In this document: piece by piece, positions 26,952 to 37,360 of the stretch
Layout: every line of letters begins with the position of its first letter
Numbering within the stretch: the first letter of the stretch is position 1
Assembly (NCBI GenBank): GCA_030697665.1
Contig: JAUYPJ010000080.1
Location: 5,475-69,474, forward strand
DNA: 64,000 nucleotides
Source: Candidatus Omnitrophota bacterium
GTDB lineage: Bacteria > Omnitrophota > Gorgyraeia > Aquiviventales > Aquiviventaceae
Direction: 5' to 3'
Position numbers and translations under genes: made by a program
The notes under the pieces: model-generated
Database searches by the model: none
Told to the model about the DNA's origin: nothing
Seen by the model: only the letters and a program-made list of their open reading frames with translations

Positions 26952-27305
26952 TTACGGTGGGGAGCCGGGGTCTCTCGGCGCCAGGGTCTCCAAGGTGGGC
27001 AGGAGACGAGGGATGTCGATCGTCGCGGTCTTCCAGACCTCTTCAAGATCGACTTCATCGTAGGCATGAATCAGCTTGTCGCGCATCCCGGCCATGAGTG
27101 TCCAGGGAATCGCGGAATGGTGGGCCCGAAACGCGTCCGACAGCCGCTTCGCGGCTTCGCCGAAGATCAGGAGCTGGTGGAGGATGGCGGACTGGGTCTT
27201 GAGGTCGGTCAGGAAGGCGGGCTTCTCAAGGTTGCTTCGGAACTCTACGACCAACCGGGCGGCTCGGACGAGGTCCAGCACGCTCGCCTGGTCATTGCGC
27301 GACAT
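26952..27305 (-). CDS. hepT: HepT-type HEPN toxin (DUF86)
   Basis: R-x4-H motif in MRDKLIHAY. Overlaps mntA by 14 nt. Confidence 0.8.
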   Translation of the reverse strand: MSRNDQASVLDLVRAARLVVEFRSNLEKPAFLTDLKTQSAILHQLLIFGEAAKRLSDAFRAHHSAIPWTLMAGMRDKLIHAYDEVDLEEVWKTATIDIPRLLPTLETLAPRDPGSPP

Positions 27306-27600
27306 AGTAGGGCTTGGCACTGTCCAGAATGGCCCGGCGGCGAATCCAGTTGGGACTGCGCTCAATCGCGCGCCGGCTCACGAGCTCGACCTTGCGGCCC
27401 AGCAGCGCGCTCAACTCCGCTTCCATCTGGAGATGGTCCAAGAGGCCCCAGTTCGCCTCCGGCGCGAAGCTGACCAGGACATCCACATCGCTGCTGGGCC
27501 CGAAGTCCTCCCGGAGGACGGAGCCGAAGAAGTCCAGCTCGCGGACCTTCCAGCGCTGACAGAGCTCAGCAAGCTGTGTCTCGTCCACTGCAATGCGCAT
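27292..27600 (-). CDS. mntA: MntA-type nucleotidyltransferase antitoxin
   Basis: FGSVLREDFGPSSDVDVLV matches the GS-x10-DxD minimal nucleotidyltransferase motif. Confidence 0.8.
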   Translation of the reverse strand: MRIAVDETQLAELCQRWKVRELDFFGSVLREDFGPSSDVDVLVSFAPEANWGLLDHLQMEAELSALLGRKVELVSRRAIERSPNWIRRRAILDSAKPYYVAQ

Positions 27601-27770
27601 CTTCAACCTCTCCCTCGCCCCCCTAGCGTACCATCCCAAGAATCCAAAAACAAGCACACGAAGCGCACCAGGGCGATCTCCGGGTGGGTTGTGAGATAGG
27701 CCGCCACGGTGCGCAGGGCACTGTGGAGCCAACGATTTACTCAGTCAATTGAGTCAATTGTCTCCTCGAC

Positions 27771-27899: not shown

Positions 27900-28217
27900 T
27901 TAGGCGTGAGCGTAGCGGGGTGCCCGCTGCCTGATCTTGATGACGAGTTCCCCGTTGAGGGCTTCGACGACTTTCAGGAGCGTATCGAGCGTGAAGTTGT
28001 GCGTCTCGGCGCGTTCCAGCTTGGCAATGAACGGCTGGTTCACCTTCAAGCGCTTGGCCAGGGCAGCTTGCGTGAGGCCCTGCCGCTGCCGTAAGCCCAC
28101 GAGGGCCTCCACCAGCCGCAGCTTGTGCAGCTCCTCCTCGTACCCCTGGCGGAAGCCGGGCCGCTTGAGCAGCCGATGCACAACCTCCCGATGGGGGATG
28201 GCCCGTACGTTCTTCAT
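27900..28217 (-). CDS. HigA-like XRE-family antitoxin
   Basis: GLTQAALAKRLKVNQPFIAKLE HTH. ATG at 28215-28217. Confidence 0.7.
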   Translation of the reverse strand: MKNVRAIPHREVVHRLLKRPGFRQGYEEELHKLRLVEALVGLRQRQGLTQAALAKRLKVNQPFIAKLERAETHNFTLDTLLKVVEALNGELVIKIRQRAPRYAHA

Positions 28218-28332
28218 CGCTGATGTAGGCGAACGCCTTTTGTTGGTCATCCTGGCCCAGCGCCAACAGGAACGCCAAGGCCGGGGCTTCGCCCCTGGCA
28301 TCGGGGTAGTAGAAGACGGGTTTGCCAGCCAT
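28218..28332 (-). pseudogene. truncated Gp49/HigB-like toxin stub
   Basis: MAGKPVFYYPDARGEAPALAFLLALGQDDQQKAFAYI resembles only the first 35-40 aa of RelE/Gp49-type toxins. The frame then runs into the antitoxin gene. Confidence 0.4.
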
Positions 28333-28356: not shown

Positions 28357-29460
28357 TTGAGTCCTGCATAAACAATGGAACATCCTGACCGGTTCCGCGA
28401 TCATGGGAGGCATGCGACCTCCTGGCAGCCCCAGCCAGCTGGAGCGGCGTCGCCGACGCGCCCTCGAGCTGCTGAAGAGGGGCCTGACGCAGTCGGCAGT
28501 GGCGGAGCAGCTCGGCTGCGCCAAGAGCTCGGTGTCCCGCTGGCATCACACCTTCGAGCGGGCGGGGCCCAAGGGGCTGGCGCCCAAGCCGATTCCCGGC
28601 CGCCCGTCCAAGCTCTCCAGCGCTCAGAAGCAGCGCCTGGTGCGGCGGTTGGTGAACGGCCCCATGGCCTGTGGCTATGGGACCGACCTCTGGACATTGC
28701 CCCGCATTGCCGACCAGATCGCCCGCCAGTTCCACGTCCGCTATCACCCCGCCCATGTCTGGCGGCTCTTGCGCGGGCTGGGGTGGAGCTGCCAGAAGCC
28801 GGAGCGCCGAGCGCTGCAACGGAACGAAGCCGCCATCGCCTACTGGCGGCGGGCCGTCTGGCCGCAGCTAAAAAAAGGCTCAACGGCTGGGCGCCCACCT
28901 CGTCTTCCTCGACGAGAGCGGGTTCTCGCTTACTCCCACGGTCAAGCGGACCTGGGCACCCCAAGGCCAAACGCCGTACCTCTACCATATGTTCAAGCGC
29001 GACAAGTTCTCCGCCATCAGCGCCCTCACGGTCTCGCCCCGGCACCGCCATCTGGGGCTCTATCTCCGTCTGGCCACCAACCGAGCCTTCACCGGCCTGG
29101 ATGTCCGTGCCTTCCTCCGGGCTCTGCTGCGGCATCTGCGGGGGGCGGTGGTCCTGCTGTGGGACCGCGGCACCATTCACACGCGGCGGGCGGTCCAGGT
29201 CTATCTGGCGGCCCATCCCCGGGTGGCCCCCTACGACTTCCCGCCCTATGCCCCAGAGCTTAACCCGGCCGAGCATATCTGGAACCAGGCCGATGCGGCC
29301 CTGGCCAACGGCGCCCCGCTGCACCTGGCGCAGCTGCGCGGGAGGCTCCGGCGGACCACCCACAGGCTCCGCCGCTCGCCACGACTCCTGTGGGCGTGCA
29401 TCGAGGCGTCCGACCTGCCGTGGGAACCCTGAGATGTTCCATTATTTATACAATTCTCAA
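28357..29460 (+). mobile_element. IS630-family insertion sequence with TA target duplication
   Basis: TIRs are TTGAGTCCTGCATAAACAATGGAACATC (left) and TTGAGAATTGTATAAATAATGGAACATC (right, reverse complement). TA flanks at 28355-28356 and 29461-29462. Confidence 0.85.
28403..29432 (+). CDS. IS630-family DDE transposase, split in two frames at an A7 run
   Basis: The N-terminal HTH part is in frame 28403. The DDE part (FLDESG, WDRGTIH, PPYAPELNPAEHIW) is in the frame of ORF 28989..29432. The frames join only if one A of 28870-28876 is skipped. Confidence 0.8.
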
Positions 29461-29771: not shown

Positions 29772-30734
29772 TTATAAGCCAAAACTTGTAAAAGGTGGTC
29801 TCCTGCCTGTGAAGATATTCCTTACAGTATCAAGGTTGTGCCCGAGCTTCTCGCTCTTTTTAGTCACCAATTCCGTTGTGCTGGAGAGCTCTTCTGAATC
29901 TGCCATCAGGTTAACAATTTTGTATCGCCTTGTATGTGGAGGAACCGAAACGATGACAACATCTCCCGTCTTCGTCGTATACAAAGGAATCTGATACTTG
30001 TGGAGAAGCTCTCGTATCTCGGGTTTAGGATGCTCAAACTGACTGTCATAATTTGATGAGGCAATCGCTACTGATGGCTGTACGCTTCGAAGGAAGGCGC
30101 TTGTTGTAAAACCGTTATCGGCTCCGTGGTGCGCGAGGATCATAATATCCACTTCCTCGCGGAAAGCCCGATGATTCCTTAAATACGAGCTTATCCCAAC
30201 ATCCTCTACATCTCCTAGACTGGCTATATTGAAGCATCCAGTGCGGAATAGTTTCACTGTCGAGTTATTATTAGAATCCTCCGACAGGTATTTAGGATGG
30301 TAGAAGATATCGTGATAACCCCAACTCTCAGCAGGCTCCAAAGATTTGATATACGGTGGGTCCACACGCTGTACCACGCAGGCAGGGTTGCGTTCCTTAA
30401 AGCTTAAAATCCTTCCAAGGCATTTCTCAGCAGTCTCCGTGTGCGGAGGATAACCTGGATATTCGATTTTGGCTGGATTTAACTTCGCTAGGGTCTCCTC
30501 GAGGTCGACTTCAGCACAATGGTCGGCATCCCAGCTTGTTATGTGGAGGCAGCCAATTTTGTTTACCCCACATGCTCGTAGTTCTGCCTGCAAGGTTCGC
30601 CGATTCACATCGTTAAGGCGAGCTTCTATTAGAGTGAACCGAAAACCGTCAAAATAACTGAAGGAAGATCCCTCGCATCCAAGCTGGTATGCTCTGAATC
30701 TGGTGTGCTTTGCCTGTAACCCCGTTCTCATCAT
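29772..30734 (-). CDS. metallo-beta-lactamase-fold hydrolase, ComEC/Rec2-like subtype
   Basis: HITSWDADHC, SLGDVE and LAHHGADNG metal-ligand motifs. AT-richer island. Last gene of the minus-strand array. Confidence 0.8.
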   Translation of the reverse strand: MMRTGLQAKHTRFRAYQLGCEGSSFSYFDGFRFTLIEARLNDVNRRTLQAELRACGVNKIGCLHITSWDADHCAEVDLEETLAKLNPAKIEYPGYPPHTETAEKCLGRILSFKERNPACVVQRVDPPYIKSLEPAESWGYHDIFYHPKYLSEDSNNNSTVKLFRTGCFNIASLGDVEDVGISSYLRNHRAFREEVDIMILAHHGADNGFTTSAFLRSVQPSVAIASSNYDSQFEHPKPEIRELLHKYQIPLYTTKTGDVVIVSVPPHTRRYKIVNLMADSEELSSTTELVTKKSEKLGHNLDTVRNIFTGRRPPFTSFGL

Positions 30735-30840
30735 ATTACTTTGTCTTTAGTGATGGCAGAAGACGTTCCTCTTCGTGTCGTCTAAAGTCCCTACCTGGTA
30801 CGTGGGGGGGGACGCCTCCGGTTTTCCGAACCGTGACAGC

Positions 30841-31479
30841 TCATTTTGCATGCGATTCCTCTGTCAAGACGTTTAAGACAAAGCGCGTCCCGTAGTTGCG
30901 TGCTGATGTGGAAAGGATTAAATATTGAGCGATGAGGGTAGCTCCGTAGAGGGCTACGATCTTCAAGCTGGCCAGCGCCACGAAAATACCGATGGAAAAC
31001 AGCACGGCGAAAACTGCTGATAGCGCCGTCATGTCACGGGTCAATAGGTATGCCCTGTGCGCCTCGATCACCGTCACGCTTTCGGTGTGCTTCTTGTAGA
31101 GTTGATACCAAAGGGCATTCTGTTCCTTCGGATCCTCCGGAAACCGACCACATTTCGTTTTCAAAACCTTGACAGCAATCCGGGGATCTGTACCCATGAG
31201 CTTCGAAAAAGCACGGCAGCCGGGTAAGGGGTTCTGCCAGCGCCAGAAAACGAGTCGGGCCTTTGCCAGATCACCGAGAAAGCCGTTCAAGACGACGGCG
31301 GCCAGTGGCATGCAGATTGTAGCAAGTCCGTCTTTCGCGGATACGCGTTGCCAGAAGTGCTCAATGGATGAACTGGTCAATTGCTTGCTCACGGATACCG
31401 AAAGAAACACCGCGAAGTTGACCCCGATAAAAATCCAGAGTCGCCAGGCGTTCTTGCTTTTTAGATATTCTTGTCCCAT
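30841..31479 (-). CDS. four-TM membrane protein, unknown family
   Basis: 212 aa from ATG 31477-31479. Layout is 2 TM, about 85 aa of basic soluble segment, then 2 TM. Starts 16 nt downstream of the upstream MBL gene. Confidence 0.6.
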   Translation of the reverse strand: MGQEYLKSKNAWRLWIFIGVNFAVFLSVSVSKQLTSSSIEHFWQRVSAKDGLATICMPLAAVVLNGFLGDLAKARLVFWRWQNPLPGCRAFSKLMGTDPRIAVKVLKTKCGRFPEDPKEQNALWYQLYKKHTESVTVIEAHRAYLLTRDMTALSAVFAVLFSIGIFVALASLKIVALYGATLIAQYLILSTSARNYGTRFVLNVLTEESHAK

Positions 31480-31495
31480 TGCGATATCATCCGGT

Positions 31496-32590
31496 TCACT
31501 CCTCGACCTCGCTATAGAACGGTAAAGGTGTTGATGTAGTCCAGCCGCGGTCGGGCGCATTGTTTCGCTGACATTTTGTTTGACCCGCTGTAGCATGAAC
31601 AGGAGCGCCGCGCCGCAGAAACGCATTTGTGACTTTCTTTGCCGGGTGCTTAGGTGCCCCGTCAGGGGAGACGGAAACAAAGGCCGTCTTAAGTTTGTTT
31701 TCCGAGGACAATTTGTTGCCTATAAGTACGTTGAGAAGCGTCGGCCCGATATTCCTTTGGCTTCCATGATGAGGAACTTGAACGAAATTGAGCTTTGAGA
31801 AATCGAAACCCTCTTGCTGAAGCCGTGACACCGCCTCGGTGAAAGCTGGAATGCCAGCATCACCTGTAAAAAGCATGGAATGGTCACCGATGGTGAAAAG
31901 AAGGATAGCGCTAGAATTATTCTCTGCGGATGTCTCGCCGGAATCATCTAGCGTTTCAAATCCCCAACTCTCAGCAATTTTCTTGACGGTCTCTTTCGCC
32001 TCTTTCATAAATTGCGCAAGAGGGCTAAGTCCTTGTTTGGGTTCTGGCGTCCCTCGATAGCCGGGCAAGAGTTGTTTGTAGAAATCTTCCGATGGCCCAA
32101 GGACGCGCATGACCTTGTTGTAACCGTGTACACCCCAAAACGGTTCAACGATCTTGATGCCTTTCTGCTTGGCGATTGTCTCAAGGGTTCGGACTGTCTC
32201 AAGGGATTCGCGCAAAGCCTTCTTGACGCTTTCATCGGTAACGCGGCTGTCCTCAAAGAGGTGGGAGATGTCGTCCGTGTGGTTCCAAGGTTGGTGCATC
32301 ATCAGATGGGCAACCTTCATTTCGTTCAAAACCACCTCAAGACCGGATGCGTGGTCGTTGTCGGGGTGGGTAGAGATGACGACATCAACATGGTCTGTCT
32401 TGTAGTATTTCTGGATATGTGAGACCAAGGTTTTGCCCGAATCCTGAAAACCGCCATCGATCACAAAGACCGTTTGCTGCGGCGGATCTGCCAAGAGGTT
32501 ACCAAATCGTAACGCAATAGCGTCTCCAGACTTTTCGCCTTCGCCGACAGGCAGGAAGTCAACTTCATAGCCGATGTGGTTCGTGTTCAT
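31496..32590 (-). CDS. metallo-beta-lactamase-fold hydrolase, ComEC/Rec2-like subtype
   Basis: ISTHPDNDHASG, FTGDAG and VPHHGS motifs. The start overlaps the S-subunit stop (ATGA 32587-32590). Confidence 0.8.
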   Translation of the reverse strand: MNTNHIGYEVDFLPVGEGEKSGDAIALRFGNLLADPPQQTVFVIDGGFQDSGKTLVSHIQKYYKTDHVDVVISTHPDNDHASGLEVVLNEMKVAHLMMHQPWNHTDDISHLFEDSRVTDESVKKALRESLETVRTLETIAKQKGIKIVEPFWGVHGYNKVMRVLGPSEDFYKQLLPGYRGTPEPKQGLSPLAQFMKEAKETVKKIAESWGFETLDDSGETSAENNSSAILLFTIGDHSMLFTGDAGIPAFTEAVSRLQQEGFDFSKLNFVQVPHHGSQRNIGPTLLNVLIGNKLSSENKLKTAFVSVSPDGAPKHPAKKVTNAFLRRGAPVHATAGQTKCQRNNAPDRGWTTSTPLPFYSEVEE

Positions 32591-33987
32591 ACTTTGGCTT
32601 TCCGCCCGTCGCCAGCAATGCTTGATTCAACAAGCCGTTTGGCTTCCTCAAGTTTCGCCCGGGCTTCGACCTTCGCGCGGGCTGCTATTCGTACCTTGTC
32701 CGCGAGCTTCCTTTGCCACCCAAGGTCAACCCTTCCGTTGCTGTTTTTGGGAACGTAGATCAGAAATTGCTGGATGTGTGCCGGGTAGAGGTGCAATTGC
32801 CCGGATGACCCCGTTTGATACTGTTCGCTTTGTGCGATACCCACCGACGAGTTTAGGAAGAGCGACAGGTAGTCAGGATCGACAAGCTCCGGCTTAGCGC
32901 GAAGAATCAGCAGGTCAACGGAAGCGACAATCTTTTGACCATTGCAGTGAATCACGCCAGCACGGCCAAGCGTCCCCCTACCTGTCGAGTTGATGACCAC
33001 ATCGTTTTCCTTCAACCGGGCGAATTCATCCGCCCAGGCCCGCAATGAAGTCCGCTCACAAGAAGCAAGTTCAATGCCTCGGCCGAACACATTCTTGCTT
33101 TTAACCACGATGACTTCACCCTCCTCCACGTATTCGTCGGGTTGCGTACCCTTACCGGGCGGCATGGCCAGTAGTTCCTCCAATGGAATCGCGCCGAACT
33201 TCTCTAGCCGCTTGGCAAGGCGGTCGTACTTGGGTTGATAGTGCTCGGCGTCAATCCGCTCGCGTTCGGTGAGAGTCTTAAAGTCCTCCGTGTAGTAGAG
33301 TTCACAAGGTTTCTCGCCCAGTTCCTTCCATCCGATTCGTTCAAGAAGTTCCGCTTCAGCTTTGGGGTACTGCTCCACAGAAATTGAATCAAGTCGGTCG
33401 ATTTCTGAGAACAATTTTCGGCACTTGTCCTCAATATGAGATAAATCAGGAAGGTAAAGGGTTCTCAGCGAAAAGCCGTTAAGTTGTCCATGGGTCCCGC
33501 CAGTTTTTAGACTCAATAAAACACGACGCCCAATATCCGACGCAAAGAAAGCACTCAGAGCAAATATCGGTGTGCGCGGCTTAGGTACAAGCCGCAAAGT
33601 ATGGGAGCTGACGAGTGCTCCACTGTGTGCCTTGGGGACTCTTGCAGCATCGGCTAAATTCGCCCCTGTTCTGACAAGGAGAAGGTCGTCTTCTTGCGCT
33701 ACCGCTTCGGGTAATGCGTTGTAGATTGCATCAGAGACAAAAACCGGTGACTCAACTTTAATCTGTCCTGGTCTTACGTTTTGTGCTCGTAGGAACAAGT
33801 GCCCAGCAGCCTCGTAAGTACGTGTGAATTCCCCAGGATGGATGATCCGCGCAAACCAATGGTCAAAGGGCTTGCCGGTTTTCTTGAAACCTTCGCGGTC
33901 TTTAGCCCCTTCGCCGATGTAGTAGTCCGGATCGAAGCGTAGGTCCTGGGGAAACAAGTCGAATTGCGCCTGACCGATGATCGCCAT
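32587..33987 (-). CDS. restriction-modification specificity (S) subunit with two target-recognition domains
   Basis: 466 aa with an internally duplicated architecture, a central helix (CRKLFSEIDRL) and a C-terminal helix (KVEARAKLEEAKRLVE). TAATG overlap with the methylase gene. Confidence 0.85.
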   Translation of the reverse strand: MAIIGQAQFDLFPQDLRFDPDYYIGEGAKDREGFKKTGKPFDHWFARIIHPGEFTRTYEAAGHLFLRAQNVRPGQIKVESPVFVSDAIYNALPEAVAQEDDLLLVRTGANLADAARVPKAHSGALVSSHTLRLVPKPRTPIFALSAFFASDIGRRVLLSLKTGGTHGQLNGFSLRTLYLPDLSHIEDKCRKLFSEIDRLDSISVEQYPKAEAELLERIGWKELGEKPCELYYTEDFKTLTERERIDAEHYQPKYDRLAKRLEKFGAIPLEELLAMPPGKGTQPDEYVEEGEVIVVKSKNVFGRGIELASCERTSLRAWADEFARLKENDVVINSTGRGTLGRAGVIHCNGQKIVASVDLLILRAKPELVDPDYLSLFLNSSVGIAQSEQYQTGSSGQLHLYPAHIQQFLIYVPKNSNGRVDLGWQRKLADKVRIAARAKVEARAKLEEAKRLVESSIAGDGRKAKV

Positions 33988-35978
33988 TATTCAGTTCTCA
34001 AGAACGCAAGGCCTTGTTCTTTGCCCCACTTGACGAACGCCTCGGCGATCTCGTCGAGGTCATGGTCAATCGCCGGGGATTTGCCGGACTGCGTGATGGG
34101 CGTTCCGCCTTCATCCACGATGTGGCCTGCAACGGTCTTATAAACATATTCGCCGCCGTTGTCCTTCCCACTCTTTTGACTCGTCGCCATGAAGACAGGA
34201 TAACTCTTGATCGGTCCCCCGGATTTCCCACCCCATTTTTGAAGGAAAACAACGCTCGTTTTCGTACCCGTGAATGGTTTGAAGGTGTTCACGTGTAGGC
34301 CGACCACGGCCAGCAGGCGGGCGCGGTTGTCGATGTAGGCGCGAAGGCCGCGCGTGCCGAGGTTGTTCAGGTTGCCTTGGGGCAGCACGATCGCCATACG
34401 GCCACCCGGTTTCAGGAAGTCGAGGCACCTTTCCACGAACAGAATGTCGCGCTTCATGCCTGCCACTTTGCGCGCAGCTCTCTTTTTCCCGTTGTCCTCA
34501 CCGGTTTCGTCTTCCCAGTTCTCCTCCTCATCCTTCAACGCCCCGGTCATGGCGAGCTCGTACAGGTCAAAGGCAGCAAGCTGAGTCTTGCCTGTGACCT
34601 TTCCAGCAAACGGCGGATTCGTCAGCACCACGTCAAAGTCGCCATCGCGCACGTTCTTGGAAAATTCGCCGATGGCTCTGGCGGTACCGTTCTGCCACTC
34701 GCGCACATCAAGGGAATTGACGCAATGGACATTCGCCTTCCCGTCCCCGGCAATGATCATCATGGTCTTGGCCACCTTCTTCAACCGGTCGTCGAAGTCG
34801 ACAGCGTACAGGTGCTCGTTGGCATACCTGTAGAGCTGCTCGCGACTCCAGCCGTACAGTGTTTGGACGTGCCGGATCGTGTGAATGAGGAACCCACACG
34901 AGCCGCAAGCTGGGTCAATCACCTTCTCGCCATCCTGTGGGTTGAGCATCTTGACCGCCATTTTGACCACGGGGCGCGGCGTGAAGTATTGGCCTTTCTG
35001 CCCTTTCTGTTCGGGATTGATCAAGTATTCAAAGGCGGCGTCCACCACCTCAAGATCGGTGCGGGCCAGGGTGAACGGTTCAATGGCGCTTGCACAGAGT
35101 TTCAGGGCGTCGCCTTGGAGTTTGAGCTTTTCGCCTTCATCAAAAATCTCGCCCCAGTGAGGTCGTTGTTTGGCCGCCTGGAACAGGTCATTGAACCGTC
35201 GGGAGACATCTTCAGGGGATCCGACAGGAACGCGGAACTCAACTGGATCTGTGGGCTTCGTCTTCGGTTGAAACTCGTCGTGTAGCTTGGCAAAGAATAG
35301 TTTGAACAGCTCATCGAACGCATTGACGCCTGCGTTTGCCAGGGCATCGTGCTCCAGTTGTTCAATCAGGGCGCGCAGATCCGGCACCGGCTGAAGCTCG
35401 GCGTACGTCAACGGCTTGAGGATGTCTTTCAAATCCTCGCCTAGCTTCGGCAACCGAGAAATGGTGCGGTATTTATAGGGGGCTTTCTTGGTGGTCTTGT
35501 CTTCCTCACGGAGTTGGAAGCTGTACTCGTTCCCGTTTGACCAGCCACCGAAAAAGCAACCCGTCCAGTTCAAATAACTTCGGAGCTGCTCAAGACCTTC
35601 TTTCGATTCCGGCTTCTTGAGCTCGAAGAGCATGTACGGATCGGTGCACGCGTGATCACTGAACACGGCGATATCGGCTCGTTCCTTCTCAGCCGCTTCA
35701 CCCATTTGCACCGGCCATTCGACTTGGATGCGGGTGAGTGGGTAGCGCAGCGTTTCTTGAATCCAGACGAGGAACAGTTGACGGACTACCTCCTCCGGTC
35801 TGGCGCGGAGCCACCTCTGGCGCTTAGCGCACCAGATTTCGTTTTTGTCCTCCCCGATCTCACGGAGCTTGACCTTGTTCCGCTCACCTCTCGTGAAAAA
35901 CTTTAAACCTTGTTTCGTGTTTGGATCGCCGAAAATACGATCAAGAAGTTCATGCTGCGTTGAAGATCTCATGTCCAC
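33987..35978 (-). CDS. N6-adenine DNA methyltransferase fused to N-terminal HSDR_N-type PD-(D/E)xK nuclease domain (BcgI-A-like)
   Basis: ADIAVF-x17-LFELKKP nuclease core. Motif I VIDPACGSCGFL and motif IV VLTNPPFAG. Confidence 0.85.
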   Translation of the reverse strand: MDMRSSTQHELLDRIFGDPNTKQGLKFFTRGERNKVKLREIGEDKNEIWCAKRQRWLRARPEEVVRQLFLVWIQETLRYPLTRIQVEWPVQMGEAAEKERADIAVFSDHACTDPYMLFELKKPESKEGLEQLRSYLNWTGCFFGGWSNGNEYSFQLREEDKTTKKAPYKYRTISRLPKLGEDLKDILKPLTYAELQPVPDLRALIEQLEHDALANAGVNAFDELFKLFFAKLHDEFQPKTKPTDPVEFRVPVGSPEDVSRRFNDLFQAAKQRPHWGEIFDEGEKLKLQGDALKLCASAIEPFTLARTDLEVVDAAFEYLINPEQKGQKGQYFTPRPVVKMAVKMLNPQDGEKVIDPACGSCGFLIHTIRHVQTLYGWSREQLYRYANEHLYAVDFDDRLKKVAKTMMIIAGDGKANVHCVNSLDVREWQNGTARAIGEFSKNVRDGDFDVVLTNPPFAGKVTGKTQLAAFDLYELAMTGALKDEEENWEDETGEDNGKKRAARKVAGMKRDILFVERCLDFLKPGGRMAIVLPQGNLNNLGTRGLRAYIDNRARLLAVVGLHVNTFKPFTGTKTSVVFLQKWGGKSGGPIKSYPVFMATSQKSGKDNGGEYVYKTVAGHIVDEGGTPITQSGKSPAIDHDLDEIAEAFVKWGKEQGLAFLRTE

Positions 35979-36018: not shown

Positions 36019-36642
36019 CTAACTCACCGATGGGATGACTCTTACCACGACCCCCTGGATGGAGAGATCCTGGTTGAGCACGATCGGTTGATGCGCGGGG
36101 TTGCTTGATCTTGGCTTGAGCAAGATCAGGTCAGCGGTTCTATGGAATTCTTTAATCGTGGCTTCTCCGTCAACAAGAGCGACGACCCAATCACCGTTTC
36201 TCGCCGTGACCTGCTGGCGCACCAGAACGAGGTCCTGATCTTTGATCCCCTTTTGGTCCATCGAGTCACCCTTCGCGCGTAGCATGAAGTACCGGTGGGG
36301 TGGACGCGCCACATCCGTCGAAACGCGTAGAGCGGCCTCGATATTTTCCTCCGCTAACATGGGGGTCCCGCACGCGACCGTTCCTACCAGAGGCACATCA
36401 ACCGTTCGAGCGCCGGCCAGTGCGTTTTCTGAGCTCCTCACGATCTGAAGGCCGCCGTTCTCCCGACGCCTCACCAGTTTCAGATCCATCAAGCGACTGA
36501 TAATGAGGGCGGCGGACCGCGGAGACTTATAGCCTAACGCTCCCATCAATTCCCGCACCGAAGGCGCGCGTCCTTTGTGGACCAGCCCGTTGCGGATATG
36601 GCGAAGCGCAGCGAGCTCTTTGTTCGAAAGCCGGCGTTTCAT
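36019..36642 (-). CDS. LexA-like S24 peptidase repressor (island-borne paralog)
   Basis: N-terminal winged HTH (PSVRELMGALGYKSPRSAALIISRL), cleavage-site-like VACG, Ser nucleophile in KGDSM and Lys in ATIKEF. AT-richer than host lexA. Confidence 0.85.
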   Translation of the reverse strand: MKRRLSNKELAALRHIRNGLVHKGRAPSVRELMGALGYKSPRSAALIISRLMDLKLVRRRENGGLQIVRSSENALAGARTVDVPLVGTVACGTPMLAEENIEAALRVSTDVARPPHRYFMLRAKGDSMDQKGIKDQDLVLVRQQVTARNGDWVVALVDGEATIKEFHRTADLILLKPRSSNPAHQPIVLNQDLSIQGVVVRVIPSVS

Positions 36643-36654
36643 TGAATACGATAT

Positions 36655-36669
36655 TATACGGATCGTATA
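36655..36669. promoter_or_regulatory. candidate operator: perfect palindrome TATACG-gat-CGTATA (plus extra half-site ATACGAT at 36647-36653)
   Basis: Read directly, 13-27 nt upstream of the island LexA-like start codon. Confidence 0.4.
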
Positions 36670-36709
36670 TTTGATGTCAAGGTTCTTTCAGCTTGCCGTC
36701 CAGACGCCT

Positions 36710-36725
36710 GTTGAGTATAGTTGAG
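36710..36725. promoter_or_regulatory. direct repeat GTTGAG-tata-GTTGAG immediately upstream of lexA ATG (candidate SOS box)
   Basis: Read directly. Its position suggests autoregulation. The LexA-box consensus of this lineage is unknown to me. Confidence 0.3.
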
Positions 36726-36727
36726 CC

Positions 36728-37360
36728 ATGACAAAACAGTTGACCAAGCGCCAGCACACCGTGCTGGAGATCATCCGCAGTTGGATCAGGGAACGCGGCT
36801 ACCCTCCCACCATCCGCGAGCTGGGCAGCCGGTTGGGGATCAAGAGCCTGCGGGGGGTGACCACCCATCTCGATGCCATCGCCAAAAAGGGGTTTCTGAA
36901 GCGGGAGCCCAAGGCGCGCAGCATCAGCCTCCAGGAGCTGGTCGCGCCGTTTGAGCGGGCGATGCGCATTCCCATTATCGGAAGGATCAGGGCGGGGCAG
37001 CCGCTGTTGGCGCAGGAGCAGGTGGAAGATCACGTGGTCATCGATGGGGCGTGGGTTGGAGCGACGAAGGACCCCGCCGCCCCGGAGCACTTTGCGCTCA
37101 AGATCCAGGGCGACAGCATGATCAACGCCGGGATCCTGGACGGCGATTTTGTGATCGTGCGCCAACAGCCGGTGGTGCAGGATGGGGAGATCGTCGTCGC
37201 GCTCCTGGGGGATGAGGCGACGGTCAAACGGTTTTTCAAAGAAGAAGATCGCATCCGGCTTCAGCCGGAGCACCCCACGATGGAGCCTATCCTCGTCGAG
37301 AAGTCCCAGCCGATGACGGTGTTGGGCAAGGTCGTGGCGGTCTTTCGTCAGTTGGCCTGA
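36728..37360 (+). CDS. lexA: LexA repressor
   Basis: LTKRQHTVLEIIRSWIRERGYPPTIRELG, AG cleavage site in RIRAGQPLLA, QGDSM and ATVKRF. Confidence 0.9.
   Translation: MTKQLTKRQHTVLEIIRSWIRERGYPPTIRELGSRLGIKSLRGVTTHLDAIAKKGFLKREPKARSISLQELVAPFERAMRIPIIGRIRAGQPLLAQEQVEDHVVIDGAWVGATKDPAAPEHFALKIQGDSMINAGILDGDFVIVRQQPVVQDGEIVVALLGDEATVKRFFKEEDRIRLQPEHPTMEPILVEKSQPMTVLGKVVAVFRQLA

What the first reader, a model, noticed from the sequence alone, without database searches (positions are those of the whole stretch)
29772..32590. Two divergent ComEC-type metallo-beta-lactamase proteins bracketing a 4-TM protein: a candidate novel effector triad
MBL-A (364 aa) carries ISTHPDNDHASG, FTGDAG and VPHHGS. 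MBL-C (320 aa) carries HITSWDADHC, SLGDVE and LAHHGADNG. These are the H-x-D-x-DH, GD and HHG metal ligands of the ComEC/Rec2 nuclease-type MBL fold.

Outside these motifs the two proteins share little similarity, so they are not a recent duplication.

The middle ORF is 212 aa.
- Two TM helices: WRLWIFIGVNFAVFLSVSV and LATICMPLAAVVLNGFLG.
- A basic soluble segment of about 85 aa: RWQNPLPGCRAFSKLMGTDPRIAVKVLKTKCGRFPEDPKEQNALWYQLYKKH.
- Two more TM helices.

Pairing nucleases with a small multi-TM protein is the layout of several abortive-infection effectors, but I cannot place this triad in any described family.
Basis: partly seen in the sequence, partly recalled or inferred. Interest (0 to 1): 0.8.

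Follow-up and report, generated by a model that had tools for sequence, protein, structure and literature searches.

The report
MBL nucleases with membrane partner
The three genes are real and form a two-nuclease variant of a widespread but untested candidate anti-phage module (PADLOC PDC-M48: a ComEC-type metallo-hydrolase plus a dedicated four-helix membrane protein), so this is an interesting unsolved system but not an unplaceable new triad.

Summary
In detail: three co-directional minus-strand genes, MBL-A (364 aa), a 4-TM protein (212 aa) and MBL-C (320 aa).

Both MBLs are ComEC-type. The ComEC nuclease domain is their closest solved relative, and their metal ligands are near-invariant across 77 and 80 homologues. 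They are only remotely related to each other (hhalign E 1.7e-4, 19% identity).

The triad can be placed.
- MBL-A is a full-length match to PADLOC candidate PDC-M48B (E 5e-94).
- The TM protein is a divergent relative of the PDC-M48A membrane partner.

The conserved unit is the MBL+TM pair.
- 69 of 72 MBL-A loci have an adjacent TM partner, and 14 of 72 add a second MBL.
- MBL-C usually has its own TM partner (45 of 79 loci), or closes validated 6A-MBL/patatin cassettes.
- The exact MBL-A>TM>MBL-C order recurs in only 3 loci.

Contexts are defence and mobilome: embedded in type I RM, prophage immunity-like regions, a P2 phage hotspot, plasmids. In the window the triad ends a lexA-like–MTase–S–MBL-A–TM–MBL-C operon on a low-GC island.

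Most likely it is an SOS-gated anti-phage module in which the membrane partner controls DNase effectors. That mechanism is inferred, and no experimental test was found.

The parts
31496..32590 (-). MBL-A: cytoplasmic ComEC-type MBL hydrolase (364 aa), PDC-M48B family. Start codon overlaps the stop of the S-subunit gene by 4 nt.
   Evidence: Lactamase_B 4.5e-10; PDC-M48B 5.4e-94 full length; LmuA-type MBL 2.3e-27; RTasMBL 6e-21; 4058 homologues; ComEC only in PDB; ligands invariant.
30841..31479 (-). 4-TM partner protein (212 aa). N- and C-termini and a conserved 72-aa basic loop are predicted cytoplasmic. Divergent subfamily (TMc1) of the PDC-M48A partner superfamily. Starts 16 nt after the MBL-A stop.
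   Evidence: hhalign to the PDC-M48A-containing cluster: 80%, E 1.4e-5, collinear; conserved polar motifs; AF2 pLDDT 84.7, all-helical; no fold match in PDB or BFVD; no Pfam; topology; 1361 representatives.
29772..30734 (-). MBL-C: second, distantly related ComEC-type MBL (320 aa) with an S-x-D-x-DH variant motif. Lies 106 nt after TM with no terminator or significant structure between them.
   Evidence: 1438 homologues; AF2 pLDDT 86.8; ComEC MBL domain 9ic4 E 2e-15.
32587..33987 (-). Type I-like specificity (S) subunit, same operon.
   Evidence: Specificity_I 1.3e-25; MAD5 108 bits, below cut-off 400.
33987..35978 (-). N6-adenine DNA methyltransferase with an N-terminal HSDR_N_2 domain (663 aa), same operon. 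No HsdR in the 64-kb window.
   Evidence: MTase_I PDLC03034 7e-141 full length; MAD2 306 bits, below cut-off 720; no HsdR by tblastn.
36019..36642 (-). LexA-like S24 autocleaving repressor (lexA2), first gene of the operon. It is 31% identical to the host LexA next door, but 38-54% identical to LexA-like genes that precede MBL-A/TM modules elsewhere.
   Evidence: TIGR00498 150 bits, above cut-off 111; C-G cleavage site, GDSM Ser and Lys conserved.
36653..36680 (-). Perfect sigma-70 consensus promoter (TTGACA-16-TATAAT) for the operon. An operator-like palindrome ATACG-ATC-CGTAT (36656-36668) overlaps the -10 box. The leader is about 3-10 nt.
   Evidence: 12/12 match; palindrome unique in the window; analogous promoter-plus-palindrome upstream of LexA-like genes in L162 and L024.
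28403..29432 (+). Frameshifted IS630-family transposase at the distal edge of the low-GC island.
   Evidence: HTH_33/HTH_32 and DDE_3 in two frames; GC 50-56% at about 29.5-36.7 kb against 65-70% in the flanks.

Best explanation
The locus is a two-MBL variant of the PADLOC candidate defence module PDC-M48. That module is a cytoplasmic ComEC-type metal-dependent hydrolase (MBL-A) with a dedicated inner-membrane 4-TM partner. Here a second, anciently diverged ComEC-type MBL (MBL-C) is added, from a family that normally uses the same partner superfamily. The triad is the distal half of a horizontally acquired six-gene operon, lexA-like / MTase / S / MBL-A / TM / MBL-C.

Proposed working, with each step marked:
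1. A RecA-responsive LexA-like repressor sits on a consensus promoter and keeps expression low until DNA damage or infection. The sequence features are shown; their function is inferred.
2. The TM partner holds or gates the MBLs at the membrane through its conserved cytoplasmic loop and C-terminal tail. This is inferred from obligate adjacency, from conservation, and from a natural CHAT-protease::TM fusion next to a 6A-MBL nuclease.
3. On an infection-linked cue the MBLs act as DNases. They either destroy entering phage DNA or kill the cell (abortive infection). This is inferred from intact ComEC-type active sites and from homology to protease-gated MBL DNases shown to degrade dsDNA.
For: Identity:
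- MBL-A matches PDC-M48B at 5.4e-94 over its full length.
- Short TM partners match PDC-M48A at 9e-57.
- The window's TM cluster aligns with that cluster collinearly (hhalign 80%, E 1.4e-5).

Linkage:
- 69/72 MBL-A loci have an adjacent TM partner, across more than 10 phyla.
- 14/72 add a second MBL.
- 45/79 MBL-C loci have a TM partner.
- Exact triads with 4-22 nt gaps or overlaps occur in L118, L120 and L139, with the other TM subfamily.

Active sites:
- Ligands are near-invariant.
- ComEC is the closest fold and sequence relative.
- Related defence MBLs are Zn-dependent dsDNA nucleases (PMC12799240 and PMC12642450).

Defence context:
- The module is embedded between HsdM and HsdS or sits next to HsdR (L094, L126, L125, L133, L013, L033-35).
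- It sits next to bona fide 6A-MBL enzyme and cap2_3 genes (376 and 575 bits, above the curated cut-offs).
- It occurs in P2-like coliphages beside gpA, on 77 plasmids, and in 45 of 5426 complete E. coli genomes.
- PDCs were defined by embedding in RM, BREX or DISARM systems.

Regulator:
- LexA-like genes sit directly upstream of MBL-A/TM in 11 other loci, several in prophage immunity-like layouts (TerL-TerS-MTase <> LexA-like-MBL-A-TM-recombinase).
- lexA2 keeps its cleavage and catalytic residues.
- It has a 12/12 promoter with an overlapping palindrome.

TM as regulator: a CHAT::TM fusion lies upstream of a 6A-MBL enzyme and cap2_3 in L165.
Against: - No experimental test of PDC-M48 or of any MBL+TM pair was found.
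- PADLOC's own PDC-M48A models do not detect the window's TM protein, and the link between the two TM clusters rests on an 80% hhalign match.
- Pairwise-identity co-evolution of MBL-A and TM is weak: rho 0.14-0.18, with 11 of 499 and 45 of 499 permutations reaching it.
- No complex prediction could be run, so physical interaction is untested.
- Patatin replaces the TM partner next to MBL-C in many cassettes. That fits a TM effector at least as well as a TM regulator.
- The substrate of these MBLs is unproven. Pce phosphocholine esterase is the second-best fold match.
- The 80+80 loci are the best-scoring pattern-selected hits, not an unbiased sample.
Confidence: 0.6

Rival explanations
1. Inverse logic, as in lambda RexAB. 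The MBLs are the sensors: they bind or nick a phage DNA structure. The 4-TM protein is the effector, which depolarises or permeabilises the membrane and causes abortive infection.
For: - Patatin phospholipase, a membrane-attacking effector, occupies the TM position next to MBL-C in more than 12 cassettes, and TM replaces it in L093, L094 and L143.
- The LexA-like>MBL-A>TM layout in prophage-like loci mirrors lambda cI-rexA-rexB (the Rex layout is from my own knowledge).
- In known systems small TM proteins are usually assumed to be effectors (PMC9122126).
Against: - Catalytic ligands are strictly conserved in both MBL families, and homologous defence MBLs are the killing DNases.
- The TM protein has a large, conserved, polar cytoplasmic part and no resemblance to known pore formers.
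- The CHAT::TM fusion looks more like sensor or anchor plus protease than toxin plus protease.
- L155 has both patatin and TM.
Confidence: 0.25
2. There is no functional triad. MBL-A+TM is one two-gene system, and MBL-C is an independent neighbour that happens to sit next to it on a defence island, possibly sharing or having lost its own TM partner.
For: - The exact order is rare: 3/79 and 0/72.
- Both MBL families function mostly with a TM partner alone.
- The window has a 106-nt gap and a weak promoter-like site before MBL-C.
- The window's TM is closest to MBL-A-linked partners (up to 84%) and only 37-43% identical to MBL-C-linked ones.
- The closest relative, L161 (87% MBL-A), has a different second MBL upstream instead.
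Against: - The same order recurs with the other TM subfamily, at 42-54% protein identity and with 4-22 nt spacing (L118, L139).
- A second MBL of some kind is adjacent in 14/72 MBL-A loci.
- MBL-C without a partner of its own would be atypical.
- There is no terminator or structure in the gap.
Confidence: 0.3
3. The six-gene operon is one HsdR-less, restriction-modification-like system. M+S methylate self DNA and the MBL nucleases, with TM, are the restriction arm.
For: - Overlapping or abutting genes M/S/MBL-A.
- No HsdR anywhere in 64 kb.
- M and S are related to but distinct from MADS MAD2/MAD5.
- RM genes are frequent neighbours of the module.
Against: - Most MBL-A/TM loci have no adjacent methyltransferase.
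- Where type I RM is adjacent, HsdR is normally present (L013, L033-35, L126).
- The closest relative carries an unrelated Dcm/Vsr module in the equivalent place, so the RM part is a swappable neighbour.
- An IS630 element next to MBL-C could explain a lost HsdR.
Confidence: 0.08
4. The genes serve a housekeeping function: DNA uptake or competence (ComEC-like), or hydrolysis of beta-lactams or quorum-sensing lactones.
For: - PGAP names homologues 'ComEC/Rec2 family competence protein'.
- Superfamily-level similarity to ComEC and to beta-lactamase models.
Against: - Scores are far below the ComEC cut-off: 46 and 38 bits against 190.
- There is no Competence channel domain or OB fold, and the TM partner does not resemble the ComEC structures in PDB.
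- Neither MBL has an N-terminal hydrophobic signal-like segment (first 40 residues).
- Distribution is sporadic, across phyla, at 60-87% identity, on phages and plasmids, and on a low-GC island.
- No competence or cell-wall neighbours were seen.
Confidence: 0.02

Closest known systems
PADLOC PDC-M48 (multi-gene phage defence candidate; Payne et al. 2024, bioRxiv 10.1101/2024.01.29.577857)
   Same: - MBL-A is a full-length PDC-M48B match.
- An adjacent, co-directional small multi-TM partner is present.
- The module recurs embedded in or next to RM systems.
- MBL-C weakly matches other PDC-M48B models.
   Different: - The window's TM partner is a divergent subfamily that the PDC-M48A models miss.
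- Two distinct MBLs flank one partner.
- The module is joined to a lexA-like/M/S operon.
- PDC-M48 itself is only a computational candidate with no tested function.
Protease-gated MBL nucleases (HamM of HamMAB, AVAST/Lamassu/DRT trypsin-MBL modules, caspase-nuclease 'canu'; PMC12799240, PMC12642450)
   Same: - ComEC-like MBL fold and metal ligands.
- Defence context.
- MBL-A matches the PADLOC LmuA-type and RT-associated MBL profiles (2e-27, 6e-21).
- MBL-A has a large insertion between the catalytic motifs relative to ComEC.
   Different: - No trypsin, caspase or subtilisin partner is present; the obligate partner is a membrane protein.
- The Avs1a model scores 54 bits against a cut-off of 420.
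- Whether the MBL-A insertion is an autoinhibitory gate is unknown.
6A-MBL anti-phage system (MBL-fold enzyme + cap2_3 E2-E1-JAB; NCBIfam NF058524/NF058523; Van den Berg et al. 2024 as cited in PMC13276650)
   Same: - MBL-C-family genes are a recurrent extra gene of 6A-MBL(+patatin) cassettes.
- TM partners also occur there, including a CHAT::TM fusion.
- The order A-like MBL ... membrane-acting protein ... MBL-C parallels the window.
   Different: - The window has no E2-E1-JAB protein.
- MBL-A scores 38.7 bits against a cut-off of 220 for the 6A-MBL enzyme.
ComEC/Rec2 DNA-uptake nuclease domain (PDB 9ic4)
   Same: - Best fold and profile match for both MBLs.
- Same STHPDxDH, NNS, D, HHG and H-P motif series.
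   Different: - Stand-alone cytoplasmic proteins, not fused to the competence channel or OB fold.
- Accessory and mobile rather than core genes.
- MBL-C replaces the first His with Ser.
Lambda cI-rexA-rexB and Kiwa (KwaA 4-TM + KwaB): analogy only, from my own knowledge
   Same: - A cytoplasmic protein plus a 4-TM protein.
- In prophage-like loci the pair is co-transcribed behind an S24 repressor.
   Different: No detectable sequence or fold similarity. The resemblance is architectural.

Membership tests
PADLOC PDC-M48 | B component: MBL protein matching a PDC-M48B model | tested here: met
   MBL-A matches PDLC04676 at 5.4e-94, residues 8-364 against profile 5-357/357. MBL-C matches PDLC04674/5/3 only at 4e-6 to 9e-4.
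PADLOC PDC-M48 | A component: small multi-TM protein matching a PDC-M48A model | tested here: inconclusive
   The window's TM has no PADLOC hit. Its cluster aligns to the cluster that contains PDC-M48A proteins: hhalign 80%, E 1.4e-5, 197 collinear columns, same 2TM-loop-2TM layout.
PADLOC PDC-M48 | A and B genes adjacent | tested here: met
   16-nt gap, same strand. The same arrangement occurs in 69/72 homologous loci.
PADLOC PDC-M48 | Demonstrated anti-phage activity | not testable with these tools
   PDCs are described as 145 untested candidates. No later test was found.
ComEC/Rec2 competence protein | Score above the TIGR00361 cut-off, with the competence channel domain | tested here: not met
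   46.1 and 38.2 bits against a cut-off of 190, with only the C-terminal MBL part matched. No Competence Pfam domain. The TM partner has no fold match to ComEC chains in PDB.
ComEC/Rec2 competence protein | MBL nuclease fold with H-x-D-x-DH / D / HHG / H ligands | tested here: met
   In MBL-C the first His is Ser or Gly.
6A-MBL system | cap2_3 (E2-E1-JAB) protein in the operon | tested here: not met
   None of the six operon genes is an E1, E2 or JAB protein. A local cap2_3 profile finds nothing among the window proteins tested.
6A-MBL system | MBL above the NF058524 cut-off | tested here: not met
   MBL-A scores 38.7 bits against 220. MBL-C has no hit.
Protease-MBL nuclease modules (HamM/Avs/Lmu/canu) | Adjacent trypsin-, caspase- or subtilisin-like protease that cleaves the MBL | tested here: not met
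   There is no such protease in the operon. The only peptidase is the S24 LexA-like repressor, three genes upstream.
Protease-MBL nuclease modules (HamM/Avs/Lmu/canu) | MBL homologous to the protease-associated clade | tested here: inconclusive
   PADLOC LmuA-type MBL 2.3e-27 and RTasMBL 6.4e-21, but Avs1a scores 53.7 bits against a cut-off of 420.
Type I restriction-modification | HsdR together with HsdM and HsdS | tested here: not met
   M and S are present. No HsdR in the 64-kb window by tblastn.
MADS (methylation-associated defence system) | MAD2 and MAD5 above NCBIfam cut-offs, plus the other mad genes | tested here: not met
   306 bits against 720, and 108 against 400. MBL-A, TM and MBL-C have no mad hits.

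The most novel reading that the evidence does not exclude
The 4-TM partner and ComEC-type MBLs form a new mechanistic class of immunity. A membrane-embedded sensor directly gates one or two DNases, here a heteromeric MBL-A/MBL-C pair on one partner, with no NTPase, protease or second messenger. In this operon the assembly would act as the SOS-inducible restriction arm of an HsdR-less M+S module, cutting DNA at the site of entry.
Probability: 0.15. Interest if true: 0.8.

Novelty: new variant of a known kind. Interest (0 to 1): 0.5.

Why it matters
PDC-M48-type MBL+TM pairs are abundant. There are more than 4000 MBL-A and more than 1400 MBL-C homologues at the 90% clustering level, and 1361 TM-partner representatives at 50%. 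They occur across many phyla, on phages and on plasmids, and they are untested.

This analysis shows that one membrane-partner superfamily, with no known fold, serves at least four clades of ComEC-like defence MBLs: MBL-A, MBL-C, MBL2 and 6A-MBL. It can be swapped for patatin or fused to a CHAT protease, and it often travels with an autocleaving LexA-like repressor.

Working out how a membrane protein controls, or is controlled by, a DNase would add a regulatory logic distinct from the protease-gated MBL nucleases described in 2025.

An E. coli P2-prophage version exists in 45 complete genomes, so the question can be tested directly.

Tried and rejected
- **Fold of the TM partner.** A confident AF2 model (pLDDT 84.7) gave no significant match in PDB (best E about 1, TM at most 0.31) or in BFVD (best E 0.43). 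The MotA/ExbB-like rows are noise.
- **Family libraries for TM.** Pfam, NCBIfam, PADLOC and PHROGs found nothing for the window's TM, even at E up to 1 in Pfam.
- **Co-evolution of MBL-A and TM.** Correlation of pairwise identities was weak (rho 0.14 and 0.18), so it is not used as evidence. TM subfamilies are mixed across MBL-A clades.
- **HsdR search.** tblastn found none in the window.
- **Literature.** Searches for PDC-M48, MBL+TM pairs and ComEC-like defence found no functional test. The original 6A-MBL paper is not in the library.
- **P2-hotspot papers.** Neither mentions the module.
- **RNA structure or terminator between TM and MBL-C.** None (z = 0.32).
- **The 293-aa gene downstream of TM in the closest relative (L161).** It is not an MBL.
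- **SLATT-like or holin-like identity for TM.** Rejected for lack of any hit.


Full report
**1. Observation**

The three minus-strand ORFs exist exactly as described.
- MBL-A is at 31496..32590 (364 aa).
- The membrane protein is at 30841..31479 (212 aa from the ATG). The mechanical ORF extends to a TTG inside MBL-A, but NCBI's call and the family alignment support 212 aa.
- MBL-C is at 29772..30734 (320 aa).

All quoted motifs are present. The region is a low-GC patch: 50-56% against 65-70% in the flanks. The window's own proteins are recorded from a Candidatus Omnitrophota MAG.

**2. The two MBLs are ComEC-type hydrolases with intact sites**

- MBL-A passes Pfam Lactamase_B. MBL-C has no Pfam hit.
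- The AF2 model of MBL-C (pLDDT 86.8) has the ComEC beta-lactamase-like domain 9ic4 as its best PDB match (E 2e-15, TM 0.72). Pce phosphocholine esterase comes next, then RNase J-type nucleases.
- Profiles of both families hit only ComEC chains in PDB below E 0.001. The alignments pair STHPDxDH, NNS, D, HHG and H-P.
- In 77 MBL-A homologues (34-87% identity) and 80 MBL-C homologues, the ligand positions are kept in at least 72/77 and 79-80/80 sequences.
- One correction: in MBL-C the first His of the motif is an invariant Ser/Gly (TSWDADH), with a conserved His three residues upstream.
- The two families are only remotely related (hhalign E 1.7e-4, 19% identity). MBL-A has an insertion of about 80 residues between the catalytic motifs. 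Relative to ComEC the insertion is about 67 residues.
- Neither MBL begins with a hydrophobic signal-like segment (first 40 residues).

**3. The membrane protein**

- AF2 gives a confident all-helical model (pLDDT 84.7, pTM 0.79).
- Hydropathy and charge place both termini and a 72-aa loop (net +6) in the cytoplasm.
- The family has strongly conserved polar motifs in that loop and in the C-terminal tail: KARLVFWRW-NPLPG-R-F, DPR-D, QN-LWY-LY, EAHR-YLLTRD and ARNYG-RFV-NVL-EES.
- It has no Pfam, NCBIfam, PADLOC or PHROG family.
- It has no fold relative in PDB or BFVD.
- It is a large family: 1361 representatives at the 50% clustering level.

**4. What the unit is**

I fetched 80 genomic loci around MBL-A homologues and 80 metagenomic loci around MBL-C homologues. 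I mapped them with HMMs for MBL-A, MBL-C, a third MBL type (MBL2) and two clusters of downstream membrane proteins.

- MBL-A is followed by a 160-260 aa, 3-4 TM protein in 69 of 72 loci.
- Those partners fall into two sequence clusters that align collinearly (hhalign 80%, E 1.4e-5).
- The larger cluster contains proteins that match PADLOC PDC-M48A at 9e-57.
- MBL-A itself is a full-length PDC-M48B match at 5.4e-94.
- 14 of 72 MBL-A loci also carry a second, different MBL, in variable order.
- MBL-C has a TM partner of the same superfamily directly upstream or downstream in 45 of 79 scored loci. Many of the remainder are cut by contig ends.
- The exact MBL-A>TM>MBL-C order recurs in L118, L120 and L139. 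These have the other TM subfamily, only 42-54% protein identity to the window, and 4-22 nt gaps or overlaps.
- In the closest relative (87% MBL-A, 79% TM), the second MBL lies upstream and is of another type.

So the MBL+TM pair is the conserved unit. Two MBLs around one partner is a recurrent but minority variant.

**5. Context**

Recurrent neighbours are defence and mobilome genes.
- **Type I RM.** The module is embedded between HsdM and HsdS (L094, L126) or lies right after HsdR (L103, L125, L133).
- **Type III-like REase.** One sits before the L139 triad.
- **6A-MBL.** The 6A-MBL enzyme and cap2_3 protein score 376 and 575 bits, above NCBI's cut-offs. MBL-C is a recurrent fourth gene after patatin, and TM partners sometimes stand in patatin's place.
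- **Mobile-element genes.** Serine recombinases, integrases and, in CPR bacteria, terminase and MTase genes.

Further placements:
- A natural CHAT-protease::TM-partner fusion precedes a 6A-MBL enzyme and cap2_3 in L165.
- MBL-A plus a short TM partner sits beside gpA in P2-like coliphages. That region is a documented reservoir of defence genes (PMC9122126).
- Homologues occur on 77 plasmids and in 45 of 5426 complete E. coli genomes.
- PDC systems were defined as untested candidates embedded in RM, BREX or DISARM systems.
- I found no housekeeping neighbourhood.

**6. The window's operon**

- Six genes abut or overlap on the minus strand: lexA-like, MTase (with an HSDR_N_2 N-terminal domain), S subunit, MBL-A, TM and MBL-C.
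- A 12/12 sigma-70 promoter sits directly upstream of lexA-like. A palindrome (ATACGATCCGTAT) overlaps its -10 box, and there is almost no leader.
- The LexA-like protein keeps the Cys-Gly cleavage site, the GDSM serine and the lysine.
- It is 31% identical to the host LexA encoded divergently next door. It is 38-54% identical to LexA-like genes that directly precede MBL-A/TM in 11 other loci.
- In CPR prophage-like loci the arrangement repressor>MBL-A>TM, divergent from the packaging genes and flanked by recombinases, resembles a prophage immunity region.
- No HsdR is present in the 64-kb window.
- An IS630 remnant and a HepT/MNT pair bound the island.

**7. Mechanism**

Shown:
- intact ComEC-type active sites;
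- obligate adjacency to a conserved membrane partner with a large cytoplasmic face;
- defence and mobile contexts;
- an autocleavage-competent repressor with a strong promoter.

From the literature: homologous defence MBLs are latent Zn-dependent dsDNA nucleases, unlocked by partner proteases.

Inferred: here the membrane partner replaces the protease as the controlling element, and the MBLs are the DNA-degrading effectors. Expression is raised by SOS-type derepression.

The main rival reverses the roles, with the MBL as sensor and TM as membrane effector. The patatin/TM interchange supports it. The data do not exclude either the view that MBL-C is a separate neighbour or the view that M+S are functionally coupled. 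Housekeeping competence or lactamase roles are very unlikely.

**8. Novelty**

The triad is not unplaceable. It is a variant of PADLOC PDC-M48, with links to 6A-MBL and to protease-MBL modules.

New here:
- a divergent partner subfamily that PADLOC misses;
- the flanking two-MBL layout;
- one partner superfamily shared across several MBL clades;
- the LexA-like linkage.

Function and mechanism remain experimentally open.

Noticed in passing
window 36019-37360: Two LexA paralogues (31% identical) are divergently arranged with an 85-bp spacer. The spacer holds a perfect consensus promoter for the island copy and a unique palindrome (36656-36668). That palindrome also overlaps a plus-strand promoter-like site for the host lexA, so cross-regulation of host SOS and island is conceivable.
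   Followed up: partly
window 32587-35978: The M+S pair has no HsdR anywhere in the 64 kb. The MTase carries an N-terminal HSDR_N_2 domain and is a full-length match to PADLOC MTase_I PDLC03034. M and S resemble MADS MAD2/MAD5 but fall below the cut-offs.
   Followed up: partly
window 26952-27732 and 27900-28301: A HepT (HEPN RNase)/MNT nucleotidyltransferase toxin-antitoxin pair and an HTH antitoxin-like gene lie between the island and the core genes. This extends the accessory region to about 26.5-36.7 kb.
   Followed up: partly
window 28403-29432: IS630-family transposase split over two frames (HTH part and DDE_3 part), directly downstream of MBL-C. It may mark a deletion that removed further island genes.
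   Followed up: no
window 29772-30734: NCBI's gene model for MBL-C (273 aa, Q8R91_05240) starts 47 codons too late. The invariant family N-terminus TRFRAYQLG lies upstream of that start.
   Followed up: yes
L114, L147, L157, L146, L100, L124 and others (metagenome loci): A four-gene cassette recurs: [6A-MBL enzyme]-[cap2_3 E2-E1-JAB]-[patatin]-[MBL-C-family MBL]. This suggests that patatin and a second MBL are unrecognised accessory genes of the validated 6A-MBL system.
   Followed up: partly
L165 5194-9527: A CHAT caspase-like protease is fused to the TM-partner domain (P0395, 594 aa). It lies directly upstream of a 6A-MBL enzyme and cap2_3.
   Followed up: partly
L163 (Escherichia phage D8) 558-2146; NC_049389: P2-like coliphages carry the MBL-A homologue and a 162-aa TM partner in convergent orientation next to gpA. 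RefSeq and phrog_7043 label the MBL 'tail protein', which looks like a mis-annotation. PGAP labels the E. coli copies 'ComEC/Rec2 family competence protein'.
   Followed up: partly
L161/L162 (closest relative of the window's MBL-A): The island is headed by a LexA-like gene (55% identical to the window's). After it come DUF2188, a Dcm-type MTase with Vsr, two E2-like genes, a ThiF E1 and a JAB-like gene. Then come a second MBL, MBL-A and TM. The head (repressor) and tail (MBL/TM) are the same as in the window, but the middle cargo differs.
   Followed up: partly
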